A DNA stretch of 36,791 nt from Minisyncoccota bacterium. Its GTDB lineage: Bacteria > Patescibacteriota > Minisyncoccia > UBA9983. The position numbers were made by a program, and so were the translations under genes. Within the stretch, counting starts at the first letter, position 1. Each line of letters starts with the position of its first letter. Where the stretch lies: assembly GCA_041648395.1 (NCBI GenBank), contig JBAZPC010000004.1, positions 1 to 36,791 of the forward strand. The letters are read 5' to 3'. This document shows, one piece after another, positions 5,715-25,315 of the stretch. The notes below the pieces were generated by a model. It ran no database searches and was not told where the DNA came from. It worked only from the letters and a program-made list of their open reading frames with translations.

Positions 5715-6462
5715 TGTCGGGGGGACAAAAATAAAGGCAATCCTACTGAATATAAAATCAGGCCGTCGTTTTGGCGCCTTTGAGGGAAAAACTCCCCAAA
5801 ATTTTCCTGCTTTTAATAAATTTTTGGAAAAAGGCATTAAGGGAGTAATTAAAAAAACTAAAATTTCCGGCATCGGAATTGGCCTGCCTGGCGTGGTAAA
5901 AGACGGAAAATTATTAGAAGCGCCACATCTTCATTTTTTGAAAAATTGGAATGTCCGCAAATTTCTTTCGCGTTTTCGCGTTCCAGTAAAAGTGGAAAAT
6001 GACAGCAGATGCTTTCTTGTTAGTGAATCAATATTGGGTGCCGGAAAAAATAAAAAAAATATCGCCGTTTTGACGATAGGGACGGGCATAGGCGGAGGAT
6101 TAATGATTAACGGGAAAATTTATCGCGGCGGAGGCAGCGCGGGAGAATTCGGTCACATGATTATAAACAGGGAAAAAACATTGGAGGAATTGGGAGCCAA
6201 AAAAGCGTTTTTAAAAATGGGCGACAGGAGTAAGGTTATAGGCGCCGGCATTGCGGACATAATCAACGCATTTGACCCCGATGTTGTTATTTTGGGCGGT
6301 GGCGGAGTTTTTCACGGCGGCATGAATATGGAAAAAGTGAAAAAAGTCGCGAGAAAAAACATAATTTCTCCCGTTTCAAAAAAGACAAAAATTGTGAGAG
6401 GTAAACTGGGAGAAAGCGCTCAGGCAATCGGCGCGGCGTTGTTGTTTAAAGTAAAATTATGA
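5689..6462 (+). CDS. ROK family sugar kinase (glucokinase-like)
   Basis: GVDVGGTK, VENDS, TIGTGIGGG, GEFGH. Confidence 0.92.
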   Translation: MQKIYLGVDVGGTKIKAILLNIKSGRRFGAFEGKTPQNFPAFNKFLEKGIKGVIKKTKISGIGIGLPGVVKDGKLLEAPHLHFLKNWNVRKFLSRFRVPVKVENDSRCFLVSESILGAGKNKKNIAVLTIGTGIGGGLMINGKIYRGGGSAGEFGHMIINREKTLEELGAKKAFLKMGDRSKVIGAGIADIINAFDPDVVILGGGGVFHGGMNMEKVKKVARKNIISPVSKKTKIVRGKLGESAQAIGAALLFKVKL

Positions 6463-6908
6463 AAATAAAAAAAGAGAAGTTAATCGTTTATACCGACGGC
6501 GGGTCGCGGGGGAATCCGGGGCCGGCGGGGGTGGGCGTGGTGATTTGCAATGAAAAAGGAAGCGTCGTCAAGGAATATGGGAAGGATATTGGCGTGCGTA
6601 CTAACAACGAAGCGGAATACGAGGCGGTTGTTTTCGCCTTGCAGAAAATCAAGCAATTGTTCGGCAAGGGCAAGATAAAAAATTTTGAAATTGAAATGAG
6701 AATGGACAGCCAACTGATAGCGCGCCAACTTAAAGGAGAATACAAAATTGAAGAAGAAAAATTATTTCCGTTATTTATAAAAATTTGGAATCTTCGCATG
6801 AGTTTCGGCAAAATCTCGTTTACCGAAATCCCGCGCGAAAAAAACCGCGAAGCCGACCGGCTCGCCAACGAGGCGATGGATAAAAAAGAGACAAAGAGAA
6901 TGTTTTAG
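6459..6908 (+). CDS. rnhA: Ribonuclease HI family protein
   Basis: YTDGGSRGNPG, NNEAEY, DSQL, NREADRLAN. Confidence 0.9.
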   Translation: MKIKKEKLIVYTDGGSRGNPGPAGVGVVICNEKGSVVKEYGKDIGVRTNNEAEYEAVVFALQKIKQLFGKGKIKNFEIEMRMDSQLIARQLKGEYKIEEEKLFPLFIKIWNLRMSFGKISFTEIPREKNREADRLANEAMDKKETKRMF

Positions 6909-20204: not shown

Positions 20205-20714
20205 TTATTTTGCCTTTTCTATGACGACCATTAATCCTCTCGGGGCTTGTTTTGGCCCATCAGCAATCTTATAATTTTCTCCGATAAGATGCAAGAGGCG
20301 GTCCAGTCGTTCTCTTTTAAAATTATTATCAAGATATTTTTCCCTGCCTCTTAAAATGAGGTCAATCTTCACCCTGTTTCCTTCTTTCATGTAGTCGGCC
20401 GCTTTTTTCGCCCGCATTTCCAAATCGTGCTGGGAGATTCCGATGCTTATTTGGATGCTTTTTGTTTCAACCTTATGAGTTTTTTTTGTCGCGTCTCTTT
20501 CTTTTTTCTCCTCCAGATAAATATATTTGCCGAGGTCCATTATTTTAGCGACGGGCGGTTTGGCGGTCGGCGCGATTTCAATAAGGTCAAGACCGAGCTC
20601 CTTTGCCTTCTCCAGCGCTTCGGAAATTTTAAGGACGCCGAAATTTTCGGCGTTTGGTCCGACCACGCGCAACTCCGGCGCGCTTATTTGGTTGTTGATT
20701 CGCGGTTTCTTAAT
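20205..20714 (-). CDS. infC: Translation initiation factor IF-3, ATT start
   Basis: Frame extends upstream of the ORF-track start to ATT-AAG-AAA-CCG-CGA-ATC-AAC-AAC-CAA (IKKPRINNQI). LDLIEIAP and IMDLGKY motifs. An AUU start is established for infC. Confidence 0.93.
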   Translation of the reverse strand: MKKPRINNQISAPELRVVGPNAENFGVLKISEALEKAKELGLDLIEIAPTAKPPVAKIMDLGKYIYLEEKKERDATKKTHKVETKSIQISIGISQHDLEMRAKKAADYMKEGNRVKIDLILRGREKYLDNNFKRERLDRLLHLIGENYKIADGPKQAPRGLMVVIEKAK

Positions 20715-20737
20715 AGGATTTTAGTATAACGGATTTT
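20684..20737. repeat. 54-bp direct repeat, copy 1 (infC -10 box and first 10 codons)
   Basis: 52/54 identical to 21468-21521. Confidence 0.95.
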
Positions 20738-20753
20738 TTAATATCTTGCAAAA

Positions 20754-21344
20754 TTAATCAAGCAATGTTTTGGGAAAATATGAGATAATATCTTCTCTTC
20801 TTAAAATAATAATATTATTATCCGTTGCTTTTGTTAGGCCGAAAGATTGTCCTTTGGGAACTCCCACGTAGCAAACCTTTTTATTAAAAGATTTAACTTC
20901 TTCAATTGCCGGTACAAGGTCGGTATCAGAGCTTAAAAGATATGCAGTATCGTATTTATCTTCACGGGCGAAACGTATCATTTCAACGGCTATTCTTACA
21001 TCTACGCCTTTTTCATGAAAACTTTTGTCTGGATGTTGTATTAAGTTACCTAAAATAACCTGTATATTTTGTTGCTGAAGTTTGGCTATTAGTTTTTGTT
21101 GATTGGCGTACAATTTATCAGATTTTTCTTTATTTTCTCCGTTTTGCCTTTTCACGGCGCCGACATAATATCTAATTTCAACTAATGAATTATCTTTTAC
21201 AAGATTTTTGGAAAAATCACGGAAATTAAAGTCAAGCAATTTTAATAACCCTGTTTCCTTAGAGACGAAATCTTTCAATTTATAGTAAAAATTATTGCCG
21301 TCTATAAATATAAAAGCTCTGTTTTTGGACTTATTTTCCGCCAT
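20754..21344 (-). CDS. NYN domain protein (PIN-like nuclease fold, LabA/DUF88-like)
   Basis: FIDGNNFY, EKGVDVRIAVEM, LSSDTDLVPAI; ATG 21344. Confidence 0.88.
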   Translation of the reverse strand: MAENKSKNRAFIFIDGNNFYYKLKDFVSKETGLLKLLDFNFRDFSKNLVKDNSLVEIRYYVGAVKRQNGENKEKSDKLYANQQKLIAKLQQQNIQVILGNLIQHPDKSFHEKGVDVRIAVEMIRFAREDKYDTAYLLSSDTDLVPAIEEVKSFNKKVCYVGVPKGQSFGLTKATDNNIIILRREDIISYFPKTLLD

Positions 21345-21358
21345 AATTGCAATCAAAA

Positions 21359-21390
21359 ACTGCCGTCCTGGAGTTAACCAAGAAGGCAGT
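21359..21390 (-). promoter_or_regulatory. Hairpin plus U-run in the NYN 5' leader (attenuator-like)
   Basis: Minus strand ACTGCC-t-TCTTGG-ttaact-CCAGGA-c-GGCAGT-TTTT between promoter and ATG. Confidence 0.5.
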
Positions 21391-21405
21391 GAGATTAATA
21401 CACAT

Positions 21406-21435
21406 ACTATAACAAATCTCAACCCCAAAAGTCAA
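21406..21435 (-). promoter_or_regulatory. Sigma70-type promoter of NYN gene
   Basis: TTGACT-18 nt-TATAGT with TG extension. Confidence 0.6.
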
Positions 21436-21467
21436 CTTGGCTGCTGTGGATAATTTATCAAGCGCGG

Positions 21468-21521
21468 TTATTTGGTTGTTGATTCTCGGTTTCTTAATAG
21501 GATTTTATTATAACGGATTTT
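21468..21521. repeat. 54-bp direct repeat, copy 2 (orphan infC 5' end)
   Basis: 52/54 identical to 20684-20737; homology stops after codon 10. Confidence 0.95.
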
Positions 21522-21540
21522 AAAAAAGATTTCAAAGATT

Positions 21541-21807
21541 TTAGTTTTTTGTTTCTAGTTCTAATAAATATCTTTTTATCAACATCTCTTTCTTTTCTCT
21601 GCGCCATTTTTTGAGCTGAATTTCTCTTTGCCTTGCTTCTTTTAGCGTATCATATTTCTCTTGAAAAACGAGTTCAAAACTATTTTTATTCTTAGTGAAA
21701 TTCGCCCCTTGATTTATATTGTGCGAATTAATTCTTTTATCAATATTTTTCGTAACGCCGATATAAAGCTTATTGGCGTTATTTTTTATCATGTATACGT
21801 AAAACAT
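21541..21807 (-). CDS. Small stand-alone GIY-YIG nuclease (#1, 88 aa)
   Basis: FYVYMI...LYIGVT...KRINSH...REIQLK. Confidence 0.9.
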   Translation of the reverse strand: MFYVYMIKNNANKLYIGVTKNIDKRINSHNINQGANFTKNKNSFELVFQEKYDTLKEARQREIQLKKWRREKKEMLIKRYLLELETKN

Positions 21808-21813
21808 AATTTT

Positions 21814-21896
21814 GTCCCTCGACTTCGCTCGGGACACTCGATTCGCCTATATGGCTTGCCACGAGTGAGCCCGAGTTTATGAGGGCGAATCGAGTG
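21814..21896. repeat. REP-like hairpins at tmRNA 3' end
   Basis: GTCCC-tcgacttcgctc-GGGAC (21814-21835) plus a perfect 13-bp IR CACTCGATTCGCC/GGCGAATCGAGTG (21835-21847, 21884-21896). Confidence 0.75.
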
Positions 21897-22237
21897 GAAG
21901 TGGGCGGATTTGAACCGCCGTGCAAAAAGTTTCTTAAAACAACTCTACAAGTTTGCTTCGGCTGTTTTTAATCAAGAAGTATTAGCCGAAGAAAATCTTC
22001 TTGATTTTGACCCAGTTTAATTTTGGCAAAATCCCTGAATCAAAAATTTTTGCCTATCCCAATGATGACGCCGGATTCCGCTTATTGGGAATCAGCGAAG
22101 CGGCGCCGCTTTACGCGTATGCGAAAGCGGAAATTGGTGACAAGTTTGCACTTATCGATTTTCTAAAAGTTTAGCGAGATTTTAGAATACTCGACTTGCA
22201 TGATTTAATACGTTTTTTGTCGATGCCTTTCACCCCC
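21895..22237 (-). ncRNA. ssrA: tmRNA; tag peptide ANLSPISAFAYA* at 22149-22111
   Basis: 5' GGGGGTGAAAGGCATCGAC; 3' T-arm GGCGGTTCAAATCCGCC and CACTTCCA; resume GCA codon with a hydrophobic/Ala tag; smpB upstream. Confidence 0.93.
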
Positions 22238-22404
22238 TAAAACTTTTTGCGAAGCAAAAAGTTCGGGCGACAGATTTCAGGGAAATCTGTTTAGCCCCTA
22301 AAACTATTTATTTATAAAATAGTCGGGCGACCCTAGCCCTAAACCCGACTGCAAAGCAGTCTAGGGTCGGGCGGGTTTAGCCCCTAAAACTATTTATTTA
22401 TAAA
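22234..22404. repeat. Array of alternating hairpin modules (CCCTAA...CGGG / GGGCG...TTAGCCC)
   Basis: CCC(C)TAAA at 22234, 22295, 22337, 22381; TCGGGCG at 22263, 22323, 22367; 30-bp direct repeat at 22289-22318 and 22375-22404. Confidence 0.85.
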
Positions 22405-22649
22405 TATTCTTTCAATACTTTTCTTTTTGTACGTCCACCCCAAAGGCTTTTCAAAAATCTTTCTCTATTAAATGCCCCTGCTTTATCTTGAAAATTTTCA
22501 GAATGGATAAGAACGAGTGGCCTCCTATTTTTTGTGGAAATAACATTTCCGTCGTTATGTTTTTTAATTCTATTTTCTAAATCACTCGTGCAGCCGACAT
22601 ATAATTTTTTGTCTTTTAAGCTGTAAAGTATATAAACAAAATAATCCAT
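22398..22649 (-). CDS. Small stand-alone GIY-YIG nuclease (#2, 83 aa)
   Basis: YFVYIL...LYVGCT...NRIKKH...RERFLK. Confidence 0.9.
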   Translation of the reverse strand: MDYFVYILYSLKDKKLYVGCTSDLENRIKKHNDGNVISTKNRRPLVLIHSENFQDKAGAFNRERFLKSLWGGRTKRKVLKEYL

Positions 22650-22660
22650 AACCTACTTAT

Positions 22661-22730
22661 CCCCTAAACCTCAAATCGCAAAGCGATTGAGGTCGGGCGA
22701 CAGATTTTGCTTTGCAAAATCTGTTTAGCC
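22661..22730. repeat. Two further hairpin modules between GIY-YIG #2 and smpB
   Basis: CCCCTAA-ACCTCAAATCGC-aaa-GCGATTGAGGT-CGGGCG-ACAGATTTTGC-ttt-GCAAAATCTGT-TTAGCC; includes the smpB stop codon. Confidence 0.85.
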
Positions 22731-25187: not shown

Positions 25188-25202
25188 TAGAACCATACAC
25201 CT

Positions 25203-25274
25203 GCGTGCGTAGCTCAATGGCAGAGCACAGAGCTTATACCTCTGCGGTTGTAGGTTCGACTCCTACCGCACGCA
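25203..25274 (+). tRNA. tRNA-Ile(UAU), CCA not encoded
   Basis: Acceptor GCGTGCG/CGCACGC plus A; anticodon stem CAGAG/CTCTG with loop CT-TAT-AC; GGTTCGACTCC T-arm. Confidence 0.9.
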
Positions 25275-25315
25275 TTGTTTTTATAATAAAATTTATATAG
25301 AATAACTACATTGGA

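What the first reader, a model, noticed from the sequence alone, without database searches (positions are those of the whole stretch)
20684..21521. NYN gene cassette bracketed by a 54-bp duplication of the infC promoter and first codons
Seen: two direct repeats 784 bp apart (52/54 identical) contain the -10 box (TATACT vs TATAAT), the ATT start and 10 codons of infC. Between them is only a NYN gene with its own promoter and leader hairpin. The upstream copy is a dead-end infC stub. Knowledge: att-like duplications restore a target gene after integration, usually at tRNA/tmRNA genes and with an integrase. Inference: an integrase-less single-nuclease cassette entered at the 5' end of an essential protein-coding gene and could excise as a 784-bp circle.
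Basis: partly seen in the sequence, partly recalled or inferred. Interest (0 to 1): 0.7.

Follow-up and report, generated by a model that had tools for sequence, protein, structure and literature searches.

The report
Mobile NYN cassette inside infC start
A small self-contained nuclease gene was inserted into the first codons of infC, an essential translation-factor gene of an ultra-small groundwater bacterium; infC survives because its promoter and start were duplicated, and the same cassette sits at unrelated gene starts in related bacteria, which points to a way of moving genes that I could not find described.

Summary
Two direct repeats 784 bp apart (52/54 core, about 79 nt in all) each carry a sigma-70-type promoter, the ATT start and 12 codons of infC. 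They bracket only a 196-aa NYN/LabA-like gene with its own promoter and leader hairpin.

It is an insertion. The closest relatives I could fetch (L080, L081, L082) have one promoter and start copy and no NYN. A relative about 88% identical (L040) has the same bracketed structure.

The NYN unit is a conserved module: a DnaA-box-like 9-mer, a promoter, a 12-bp hairpin with covariation, then the ORF. It sits in about 25 unrelated contexts across Patescibacteria. At least three other contexts are flanked by 45-95-nt duplications of unrelated target sequence, and in two of them the duplicate is the start of the downstream gene. That argues against a fixed att site and integrase, and for a recombinase-less or host-recombination route.

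The mechanism is unresolved, and circle excision could not be tested because only contigs were available. The upstream "stub" is not clearly dead. It is conserved, and its ATT-initiated frame runs through the NYN leader and stops 13 nt after the NYN ATG. I found no literature on such cassettes.

The parts
21462..21540 (-). Upstream copy of the duplicated infC 5' region ('stub'). It holds -35 TTGAAA (21535-21530), -10 TATAAT (21512-21507), ATT (21498-21496) and 12 infC codons.
21331..21498 (-). Stub ORF of 55 codons, starting at the ATT. The first 12 codons are infC codons. The frame then reads through the cassette's DnaA-box-like site, promoter and hairpin (...LSTAAKLTFGVEICYSMCINLTAFLVNSRTAVFDCNYGGK*) and stops 13 nt after the NYN ATG.
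21445..21453 (-). TTATCCACA, a perfect DnaA-box consensus, 9 nt upstream of the NYN -35. It is conserved as TTATC[A/C]ACA in most homologous cassettes and lies in reverse orientation in L064 and L067.
   Evidence: reading it as a DnaA box rests on my own knowledge
21406..21435 (-). The NYN gene's own promoter, TTGACT-18-TATAGT with TG upstream of the -10. It is conserved across the family.
21355..21389 (-). Leader hairpin CUGCCUUCUUGG-UUAACU-CCAGGACGGCAG followed by U5 (terminator-like or attenuator-like). The stem is 12 bp with a conserved pyrimidine-pyrimidine mismatch.
   Evidence: (98.6% of cells paired, 4 pairs with compensatory changes, 0/500 shuffles)
20754..21344 (-). NYN/LabA-like gene, 196 aa. 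The conserved acidic residues are intact (FIDGNNFY, GVDV, SSDTD).
20678..20755 (-). Downstream copy of the duplicated region, which is the working infC promoter and start: -35 TTGCAA (20751-20746), -10 TATACT (20728-20723), ATT (20714-20712).
20205..20714 (-). infC (IF3, 169 aa, ATT start), followed by rpmI and rplT.
20756..21461 (-). The inserted DNA, absent from the empty sites: about 706 bp running from just after ...ACCGCGC (infC codon 12/13) to the NYN stop codon.
21541..21837 (-). Context: a mini GIY-YIG gene (98 aa) between the tmRNA 3' end and the stub. It is itself variably present (absent in L081 and L082).
21894..22237 (-). Context: tmRNA (ssrA). The ancestral neighbourhood is smpB-ssrA-infC.

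Best explanation
The repeat is the footprint of an insertion. A self-contained module of about 706 bp was inserted after codon 12 of infC. The module consists of a DnaA-box-like site, its own promoter, a conserved leader hairpin and a LabA-like NYN nuclease gene. During insertion the target stretch from the infC -35 to codon 12 (about 79 nt) was duplicated. The downstream copy still drives a complete infC. The upstream copy remains as a promoter+ATT stub that now reads into the cassette.

Shown: the insertion, the duplication, the empty sites, the conserved module at unrelated sites, and the recurrence of target-derived flanking duplications.

Inferred: the module is a horizontally mobile cassette that carries no recombinase of its own. 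My preferred routes are as follows.
(a) About 45% of my belief: Campbell-type single-crossover integration of a small circular copy that carries a target 5' fragment, or another host-recombination or transformation-driven insertion-duplication.
(b) About 25%: widely staggered breaks at gene starts, filled in after the cassette is joined, possibly made by the NYN nuclease itself.
(c) The rest: unknown.

Also inferred: the NYN protein is an RNase-type nuclease that recognises its own leader hairpin. At this locus its expression is additionally fed by the copied infC promoter and by translation from the IF3-sensitive ATT start, through termination-reinitiation coupling.
For: Empty sites. L080 (IF3 95% aa identity) has GIY-YIG, then one promoter+ATT, then infC, with no NYN. 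L081 and L082 have the tmRNA 3' end followed directly by the infC promoter (alignment A4). In run X2 an abundant relative about 90% identical has depth of about 124 on infC and 0 on most of the NYN cassette. X6 holds contigs that join the infC promoter to the tmRNA end, or to GIY-YIG through 315 unrelated letters.

Same architecture in L040, which is about 88% nt identical and comes from a different sample.

Conserved module. 33 loci share TTATC[A/C]ACA, then TTGAC(-35), then the -10, then the hairpin, then ATG. The hairpin shows covariation.

Unrelated contexts. The module lies upstream of dnaG, argS, a sigma factor, a protease, a PemK-like gene, a large membrane protein, and convergent with clpP.

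Independent flanking duplications of unrelated target sequence. L067/L064: about 95 nt, z 40 and 18. L057: 57 nt covering the start of a PemK-like gene, z 12.6. L066: start of a membrane protein, 30/43 nt, protein-level z 6.8.

NYN is less diverged than its neighbours. Window versus L040: NYN dS 0.14 and 96.8% nt identity, infC dS 0.35 and 90.5%. In L075, NYN is 81% aa identical while IF3 is 63%, L20 65% and L35 50%. The whole clade collapses to about 2 representatives at 50% identity although it spans several Patescibacteria classes.

Several copies are pseudogenes, as expected for a dispensable or selfish gene.

No integrase or transposase was found among the window's large ORFs, whereas comEC, recJ and recG are present.
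Against: Nobody has seen it move. No circle junction or empty-site variant is visible in the source population, but only contigs could be laid, and contigs drop rare variants.

Only 4 of roughly 25-29 distinct contexts show a convincing flanking duplication. L048 and L058 are marginal. Nine or more well-flanked loci show none.

I found no constant cassette termini or inverted repeats.

The low dS of the NYN ORF could reflect constraint rather than transfer. The cassette's own promoter spacer is only 73% identical between the window and L040.

The origin of a first circle carrying a target fragment is unexplained. The NYN biochemistry (RNA or DNA substrate) is unknown. The only solved relative is 2QIP, of unknown function.
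Confidence: 0.75

Rival explanations
1. This is an att-type integrative element moved by a site-specific integrase acting in trans. The 54-79-bp repeat is attL/attR, and the element carries a replacement copy of the target's 5' end.
For: The geometry (direct repeats that restore the gene) matches islands that integrate into gene ends. The tmRNA-infC interval is a hotspot for small insertions: GIY-YIG and Zn-ribbon ORFs are variably present.
Against: Other family members are bracketed by unrelated sequences of different lengths (infC, a PemK-like start, a membrane-protein start, a GC-rich element), so there is no shared att core. No integrase lies in the cassette or among the large ORFs of the window.
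Confidence: 0.08
2. There is no mobile element. NYN is an old resident next to infC, and the infC promoter and start were later copied upstream of it as a local regulatory duplication. Relatives without NYN lost it by deletion between the repeats.
For: The stub is conserved and could serve NYN expression. Recombination between the repeats would regenerate exactly the single-copy sites seen in L080. L075 also has a (truncated) NYN upstream of infC, without a duplication.
Against: More distant outgroups (L081, L082, L001, L002, L005, L014, L039) have ssrA-infC without NYN. The same module sits at many unrelated sites, and in at least 3 other lineages it is bracketed by their own target duplications. 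NYN is less diverged than its flanks.
Confidence: 0.1
3. The NYN gene is a free-standing homing endonuclease gene. The protein cuts the empty infC site in DNA, and the gene is copied in by repair. The duplication is a by-product of widely staggered cuts.
For: Presence/absence polymorphism among close relatives at one precise site. The element is less diverged than its flanks. The same insertion point occurs in the window and in L040. Both L040 repeat copies share a derived base (AAAACCC), as expected if the duplication arose after the lineages split, although gene conversion would explain it too. An earlier AI note claims intein-nested relatives.
Against: Classical homing leaves no target duplication. 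NYN/LabA domains are known or predicted RNases. The intein claim was not reproduced here: no hit longer than 444 aa among the best 150 representatives. The sites differ between lineages, so one protein clade at 65-80% identity would need many specificities.
Confidence: 0.12
4. Assembly artefact: a collapsed or chimeric repeat.
For: The source is a metagenome and short repeats can mislead assemblers.
Against: Two independent assemblies and a Logan contig agree base for base. A diverged relative from another sample has the same structure.
Confidence: 0.01

Closest known systems
Campbell-type insertion-duplication, and integrative elements that enter a gene end and carry a replacement copy (tRNA/tmRNA-targeting islands; e14 and phage 21 at icd, from my own knowledge)
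   Same: Direct repeats made of the target gene's end. The gene stays intact, an orphan stub is left, and recombination between the repeats would restore the empty site precisely.
   Different: It is at the 5' end, not the 3' end. The cargo is a single 0.6-kb gene. There is no integrase and no att core shared among family members. The duplicated lengths vary (45-95 nt).
Free-standing homing endonuclease genes (phage T4 seg/mob genes, from my own knowledge)
   Same: A lone nuclease gene wedged beside or into conserved genes, patchy among close relatives, and less diverged than its flanks.
   Different: The nuclease has a NYN/PIN-like fold, not GIY-YIG, HNH or LAGLIDADG. There are long target duplications, which homing does not make. 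DNA cleavage has not been shown.
Bacterial insertion sequences
   Same: A small unit with one gene, found at many sites, flanked by duplicated target.
   Different: There is no transposase fold and no terminal inverted repeats. The duplications are 5-20 times longer than IS target-site duplications and vary in length.
LabA-like NYN proteins: PDB 2QIP (VPA0982) and the PADLOC candidate HEC-09 (bioRxiv 10.1101/2024.01.29.577857)
   Same: Pfam NYN. HEC-09 profile hit at E 3e-23 over the full length. 2QIP is the only significant fold match (TM 0.80 normalised to the target). The acidic active-site residues are conserved.
   Different: This is a tight clade largely confined to Patescibacteria, with an extra IQHPDKSFHEKGVDV segment. 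It is not embedded in an Hma defence locus. HEC-09 itself showed no phage defence in that paper.
Type III toxin-antitoxin loci (ToxIN), and Regnase-1-type self-regulation through a stem-loop (from my own knowledge)
   Same: Promoter, then a structured RNA with a terminator-like U-run, then an endoRNase-type gene. The hairpin stem is conserved in sequence, which suggests protein recognition.
   Different: There is one hairpin, not a tandem repeat array. No toxicity or RNA-binding data exist.

Membership tests
NYN / LabA-like (Pfam PF01936) nuclease domain | Profile match above the curated cut-off | tested here: met
   77.7 bits against a cut-off of 24.2, residues 10-178
NYN / LabA-like (Pfam PF01936) nuclease domain | Conserved acidic metal-binding residues and the PIN-like alpha/beta fold | tested here: met
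   D15, D115, D140 and D142 are invariant in 25 homologues. AlphaFold model pLDDT 87.6. Best PDB match 2QIP, E 1.4e-9.
NYN / LabA-like (Pfam PF01936) nuclease domain | Ribonuclease activity | not testable with these tools
   Needs biochemistry
PADLOC HEC-09 candidate defence gene | Match to the HEC-09 profile | tested here: met
   E 3.3e-23, residues 8-191 on profile positions 2-185 of 203
PADLOC HEC-09 candidate defence gene | Embedded in an Hma or other defence locus; antiphage activity | tested here: not met
   The context is ssrA-infC. The type member gave no protection in the paper.
Integrase-mediated integrative element (att type) | Integrase or recombinase gene in or near the element | tested here: not met
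   The cassette has one ORF (NYN). No recombinase was found among the 20 largest ORFs of the window.
Integrase-mediated integrative element (att type) | A common att core at the insertion sites of family members | tested here: not met
   The flanking repeats of WIN/L040, L067/L064, L057 and L066 are unrelated sequences
Integrase-mediated integrative element (att type) | A duplication that restores the target gene | tested here: met
Insertion sequence / transposon | Transposase gene, terminal inverted repeats, short fixed-length target-site duplication | tested here: not met
   The only ORF is NYN. No inverted repeat at the ends. The duplications are 45-95 nt and variable.
Integron gene cassette | An attC recombination site at the 3' end; a promoterless ORF | tested here: not met
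   The cassette ends at or within 18 nt of the stop codon with no conserved palindrome, and it carries its own promoter
Free-standing homing endonuclease gene | Patchy presence at one precise site among close relatives, and less divergence than the flanks | tested here: met
Free-standing homing endonuclease gene | Site-specific DNA endonuclease; insertion without target duplication | tested here: not met
   A 79-nt duplication is present. DNA cleavage is not testable here.
Campbell-type insertion-duplication by homologous recombination | The repeats equal a fragment of the target that includes its promoter and 5' end, so the downstream copy is complete | tested here: met
Campbell-type insertion-duplication by homologous recombination | A circular intermediate of cassette plus one repeat (784 bp) | not testable with these tools
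   Only Logan contigs were available for the source run. They show no such joint.
Type III toxin-antitoxin (ToxIN-like) | A tandem array of antitoxin RNA repeats before a terminator and an endoRNase toxin gene | tested here: inconclusive
   There is a single conserved hairpin plus a U-run, and no repeat array

The most novel reading that the evidence does not exclude
The hairpin-plus-NYN unit is an autonomous mobile element of an undescribed class. Its PIN-like NYN nuclease would be the mobility enzyme. It would cut the two strands tens of bases apart at opened DNA near gene starts (promoter or initiation bubbles), and the cassette would be joined in with a long target duplication of variable length that rebuilds the hit gene. 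The element would be built to borrow the target's promoter and start codon. In all four protein-coding cases seen here (WIN/L040, L057, L066/L068, and possibly L079) the upstream ORF enters the cassette in the same frame (..N-L-T-A-F..) and stops at the NYN start. At infC this would wire the nuclease to the cell's IF3 sensor, the AUU start.
Probability: 0.22. Interest if true: 0.88.

Novelty: new variant of a known kind. Interest (0 to 1): 0.68.

Why it matters
Patescibacteria (CPR) have tiny genomes and few classical mobile elements. Here a 0.7-kb single-gene unit colonises gene starts, including the start of an essential translation factor gene, without killing the host and without a recognisable recombinase. 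If the route is host recombination plus natural transformation, it shows how small accessory genes spread in these organisms. If the NYN nuclease itself drives insertion, it would be a new class of mobile element and a new activity for the PIN-like fold.

This locus is also a clean natural test bed. Filled and empty sites exist in relatives. The target has a well-understood autoregulatory start codon (AUU, sensed by IF3). The retained stub may couple a nuclease to translation status. The conserved leader hairpin is an uncatalogued RNA motif with no Rfam match.

Tried and rejected
I therefore could not search the rest of this genome for further NYN copies, recombinases or dnaA.

Circle or empty-site reads. 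Only one run (X1, Logan contigs, no raw reads) holds the organism. It shows no 784-bp skip or go-back joint. A 'goes back 795' joint in X2 comes from a 2-kb contig of another organism that matches only 36 nt with 4 mismatches, so I rejected it as a circle junction. I first read an X6 joint (20723->21547) as a direct empty site. The second lay showed 315 unrelated letters between the two sides. It is still NYN-free, but it is not a clean joint.

Intein-nested NYN relatives (from an earlier AI note). Not reproduced: no protein longer than 444 aa among the best 150 representatives.

Antisense small RNA at the NYN 3' end (earlier AI notes). Here there is only a weak 9/12 promoter-like site on the + strand at 20780-20807, and no room after the stop codon. 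I did not pursue it.

Rfam. No family matches the leader hairpin or the region, apart from tmRNA.

Terminal inverted repeats or constant cassette ends. None found. The left ends begin TGRATAA-like in 4 loci, but this is weak.

Structure search. It gave only 2QIP, of unknown function, so it did not separate an RNA from a DNA substrate.

Literature. Searches for NYN with Patescibacteria, homing/intein, target site duplication, and DUF88/LabA found nothing on mobile NYN cassettes.
Full report
WHAT IS THERE

All the genes concerned lie on the minus strand. Their order is:
- smpB (23168-22725)
- a mini GIY-YIG gene (22649-22398)
- tmRNA (22237-21894)
- a second mini GIY-YIG gene (21837-21541)
- repeat copy A (21540-21462)
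- a NYN-domain gene (21344-20754)
- repeat copy B (20755-20678)
- infC (ATT at 20714, to 20205), then rpmI and rplT

It is 75 nt at 88% identity without gaps, with a 54-nt core at 52/54 and a spacing of 784. A gapped alignment gives about 79 nt, with z = 29.5 against shuffles.

Each copy contains a full promoter. Copy A has TTGAAA-17-TATAAT, 11 of 12 consensus positions. Copy B has TTGCAA-17-TATACT. After the promoter come 8 nt, the ATT start and 12 IF3 codons. The NYN ORF hits Pfam PF01936. It has its own promoter, TTGACT-18-TATAGT with an upstream TG, and a leader hairpin followed by five U.

The structure is not an assembly artefact. A second assembly (L041) is identical over 3.4 kb, a Logan contig of the source run is identical, and a diverged relative has the same layout.

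IT IS AN INSERTION, AND EMPTY SITES EXIST

I found close IF3 homologues and fetched their contigs.
- L080 (IF3 95% aa, about 84% nt): smpB, tmRNA, GIY-YIG, then one promoter and ATT copy, then infC. No NYN.
- L081 (IF3 90%) and L082 (IF3 80%): the tmRNA 3' end is followed directly by the infC promoter, with neither GIY-YIG nor NYN (alignment A4).
- More distant Parcubacteria also keep ssrA upstream of infC without NYN (L001, L002, L005, L014, L039).

Contigs of relatives in other groundwater runs agree. In X2 an abundant relative about 90% identical covers infC, tmRNA and smpB at depth of about 100-190, but has 0 depth on most of the NYN cassette. X6 has contigs that join the infC promoter to the tmRNA end. 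X6 also has one contig that joins it to the GIY-YIG end through 315 unrelated letters, too short to hold NYN.

L040 comes from another sample and is about 88% identical. It has the same bracketed cassette at the same base. Copy A ends ...ACCGCGC in both genomes, then the cassette begins. The NYN stop codon abuts copy B in both. So the inserted DNA is about 706 bp (20756-21461). The insertion point lies between codons 12 and 13 of infC, and the duplicated target runs from the -35 to codon 12.

THE NYN UNIT IS A CONSERVED MODULE FOUND AT MANY UNRELATED SITES

Homologues at 57-98% identity are abundant in Patescibacteria (Lipton-, Giovannoni-, Taylor-, Vogelbacteria, Paceibacterota). In a library clustered at 50% identity the whole clade collapses to about two representatives, and the next relatives are at 45% identity or less.

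I fetched 38 metagenome loci and five more from long contigs. In 33 distinct upstream regions the same non-coding layout recurs:
- TTATC[A/C]ACA. The window has TTATCCACA, the DnaA-box consensus. Reading it as a DnaA box is my own knowledge, not a test.
- About 6-9 nt, then TTGAC (-35).
- An extended -10.
- UAAUCUCACUGCCUUCUYGG-loop-CCRGGACGGCAG-U3-5.
- The ATG.

The hairpin is supported by covariation. 98.6% of cells are paired, four pairs show compensatory changes (22 cells), 0 of 500 shuffles reach the observed score, and all slid registers collapse. A pyrimidine-pyrimidine mismatch is kept, and in two loci it is swapped from U.C to C.U. Rfam has no match.

The neighbours differ from locus to locus: dnaG, argS, a sigma factor, a trypsin-like protease, an RluA-like gene, a PemK-like gene, a large membrane protein, and clpP in convergent orientation. 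Only L075 (a truncated NYN) is also near infC. Several copies are frameshifted or truncated (L052, L060/61, L073, L075, L078, L079).

THE FLANKING DUPLICATION RECURS, WITH UNRELATED SEQUENCES

I compared the flank upstream of each module with the flank downstream of it, using local alignment and shuffles. These loci are significant:
- WIN (z 29.5) and L040 (z 37). Target: infC.
- L067 (z 40) and L064 (z 18). These share one target, about 95 nt of a GC-rich, strongly folded element.
- L057 (z 12.6). The duplication is 57 nt spanning the start of a PemK-like gene. The upstream stub reads MKKDFDKWNN and the gene reads MIKKDFDKWNN.
- L066, at the protein level (z 6.8) and as 30/43 nt. The stub MSQSIIFSIIGLV matches the downstream gene's start MTQFIIFLIIGLL.

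L048 and L058 are marginal. About 20 other contexts show nothing.

So at least four independent lineages carry target-derived duplications of 45-95 nt, and these share no common core. This speaks against an att site read by a dedicated integrase. No recombinase or transposase is in the cassette or among the 20 largest ORFs of the window, while comEC, recJ and recG are present.

AGE AND DYNAMICS

Between the window and L040, NYN has dS 0.14 and dN 0.009 (96.8% nt identity). The adjacent infC has dS 0.35 (90.5% nt identity), and the cassette's own promoter spacer is only 73% identical. In L075, NYN is 81% identical in protein while IF3, L20 and L35 are 63, 65 and 50%. NYN is therefore either exchanged between lineages or unusually constrained, and I cannot separate the two.

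Both repeat copies of L040 share a derived base (AAAACCC) where the window, L080 and L081 have AAAATCC. This fits gene conversion between the copies. It also fits a duplication that arose in the L040 lineage after the split, which would mean a second hit at the same site.

THE STUB IS NOT OBVIOUSLY DEAD

The 53-nt core of copy A (from the -10 to codon 12) differs from the single-copy L080 site at one base, and that change improves the -10 to TATAAT. It differs from L040's copy A at two bases. The adjacent spacers are about 57-73% identical. With neutral divergence of 12-25%, two or fewer changes in 53 nt is unlikely (about 0.04 or below by my binomial estimate).

The ATT frame stays open for 55 codons. 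It runs through the DnaA-box-like site, the NYN promoter and the hairpin, and stops 13 nt after the NYN ATG. A 3-nt indel between the window and L040 preserves the frame.

In L057, L066/L068 and L079, an upstream ATG-started ORF enters the cassette in the same frame (..N-L-T-A-F..) and stops within 10 nt of the NYN ATG. For L057 and L066 this ORF is a stub of the downstream gene. That makes four of four in one frame, although that frame is also open in many cassettes that have no upstream start.

My inference, which is not shown: transcripts from the copied infC promoter are translated from the IF3-sensitive AUU. The ribosome would melt the terminator-like hairpin and hand over to the NYN start, coupling NYN output to IF3 status.

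WHAT THE PROTEIN IS

It is a LabA-like NYN domain with invariant D15, D115, D140 and D142. The model is confident (pLDDT 87.6). The only significant structural neighbour is 2QIP, a Vibrio protein of unknown function.

It matches the PADLOC candidate HEC-09 at E 3e-23. In its source paper HEC-09 is a NYN protein embedded in Hma loci that gave no phage protection (bioRxiv 10.1101/2024.01.29.577857).

The hairpin stem is conserved in sequence directly after the transcription start, which suggests that the protein recognises its own leader. By analogy this resembles type III TA loci or Regnase-1. That comparison is my own knowledge.

MECHANISM, RANKED

That this is an insertion with target duplication of a horizontally mobile NYN module: about 0.75.

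Within that reading:
- (a) About 45%: Campbell-type single crossover, or another host-recombination or transformation route. This gives exactly a promoter-bearing stub plus an intact gene, and precise reversal, but it does not explain how a cassette first acquires a target fragment.
- (b) About 25%: widely staggered breaks at gene starts followed by fill-in, perhaps made by NYN.
- The rest: unknown.

Rivals are given separately: an integrase acting in trans (0.08), an ancestral NYN with a later regulatory duplication (0.10), classical homing (0.12), and an assembly artefact (0.01).

EARLIER NOTES OF THIS SCAN

After I had formed this reading (stated), look-ups showed that other agents reported the same kind of NYN cassette with duplicated gene starts at trpS, radC, rsmI, a GIY-YIG gene, hup, a Pif1 gene and cbf5 in other genomes. 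These are unchecked AI notes and I do not count them as evidence.

My own independent cases (L057, L064/67, L066) agree with them. Their DnaA-box, hairpin and overlapping-ORF observations match what I measured. I could not reproduce the intein claim.

NOVELTY

I found no paper that describes mobile NYN cassettes or this kind of gene-start duplication. I file it as a new variant of known kinds (selfish nuclease genes, insertion-duplication footprints). I give about a 0.2 chance that it is a truly new class of mobile element.

Noticed in passing
window 22260-22296 and 22690-22730 (flanking the GIY-YIG gene 22398-22649): The second mini GIY-YIG gene is also bracketed by direct repeats about 430 nt apart (AG[T/G]TCGGGCGACAGATTT...AAATCTGTTTAGCC, a hairpin after smpB). 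Relatives join smpB directly to tmRNA (skip of 500-515 nt in X2 and X6; also L080 and L082). So this gene is another small insertion with duplicated target.
   Followed up: partly
L057 3588-3680 versus 4193 onward: Nested start duplication. A small ORF, MSQLFKIITISVLVAGFFLAPVSGGIEI, upstream of the PemK-like gene copies the N-terminus of the large membrane protein that follows that gene (MKKIWSKKILISVLMVAAFLAPVSGGIRI). The PemK-like gene therefore seems to be a second cassette bracketed by a copy of its neighbour's start.
   Followed up: partly
L064 362-403; L067 721-814 and 1498-1590: The duplicated target in these loci is GC-rich and strongly folded (z -9.5 for L067 1495-1900). In L064 the upstream copy gives a sub-threshold Hammerhead_3 hit (25.9 bits, E 0.02, gathering score 48.5). 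The identity of this target is unknown.
   Followed up: partly
L040 4642 (infC start); L001 about 4298: The true infC start is ATA in L040, while its stub keeps ATT. In L001 the start appears to be CTG. So the non-canonical infC start varies among close Parcubacteria.
   Followed up: no
window 20723-20712: Only 8 nt separate the infC -10 (TATACT) from the ATT, so the infC mRNA should be leaderless or nearly so and has no Shine-Dalgarno sequence. That is unusual in combination with an AUU start.
   Followed up: no
L052, L060/L061, L073, L075, L078, L079: The NYN copies in these loci carry premature stops, frameshifts or truncations, while their promoter and hairpin remain intact.
   Followed up: partly
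proteins P0040, P0043, P0047, P0048, P0055, P0060, P0119: Versions of the same NYN clade about 300 aa long are fused to an ASCH domain (PF04266).
   Followed up: no
many NYN loci, 25-35 nt upstream of the TTATCAACAG site (e.g. L042, L052, L077, L083, L085, L086, L088): A second, extended -10-like element (TTTTnTGATAAGAT or similar) precedes the DnaA-box-like site. In one subfamily the 60 nt around it are conserved, so some cassettes extend further left than the window's does.
   Followed up: partly
L040 3471-3785; L001 upstream of infC: Small Zn-ribbon ORFs (CxxC...CPNC...CPNC) occupy the tmRNA-infC interval in some relatives. The interval is a hotspot for small-gene insertions.
   Followed up: no
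window 25202-25275: tRNA-Ile with anticodon UAU (ARAGORN).
   Followed up: no
window 6459-6908: A 149-aa ORF with RNase H / RVT_3 (reverse-transcriptase-like RNase H) hits.
   Followed up: no
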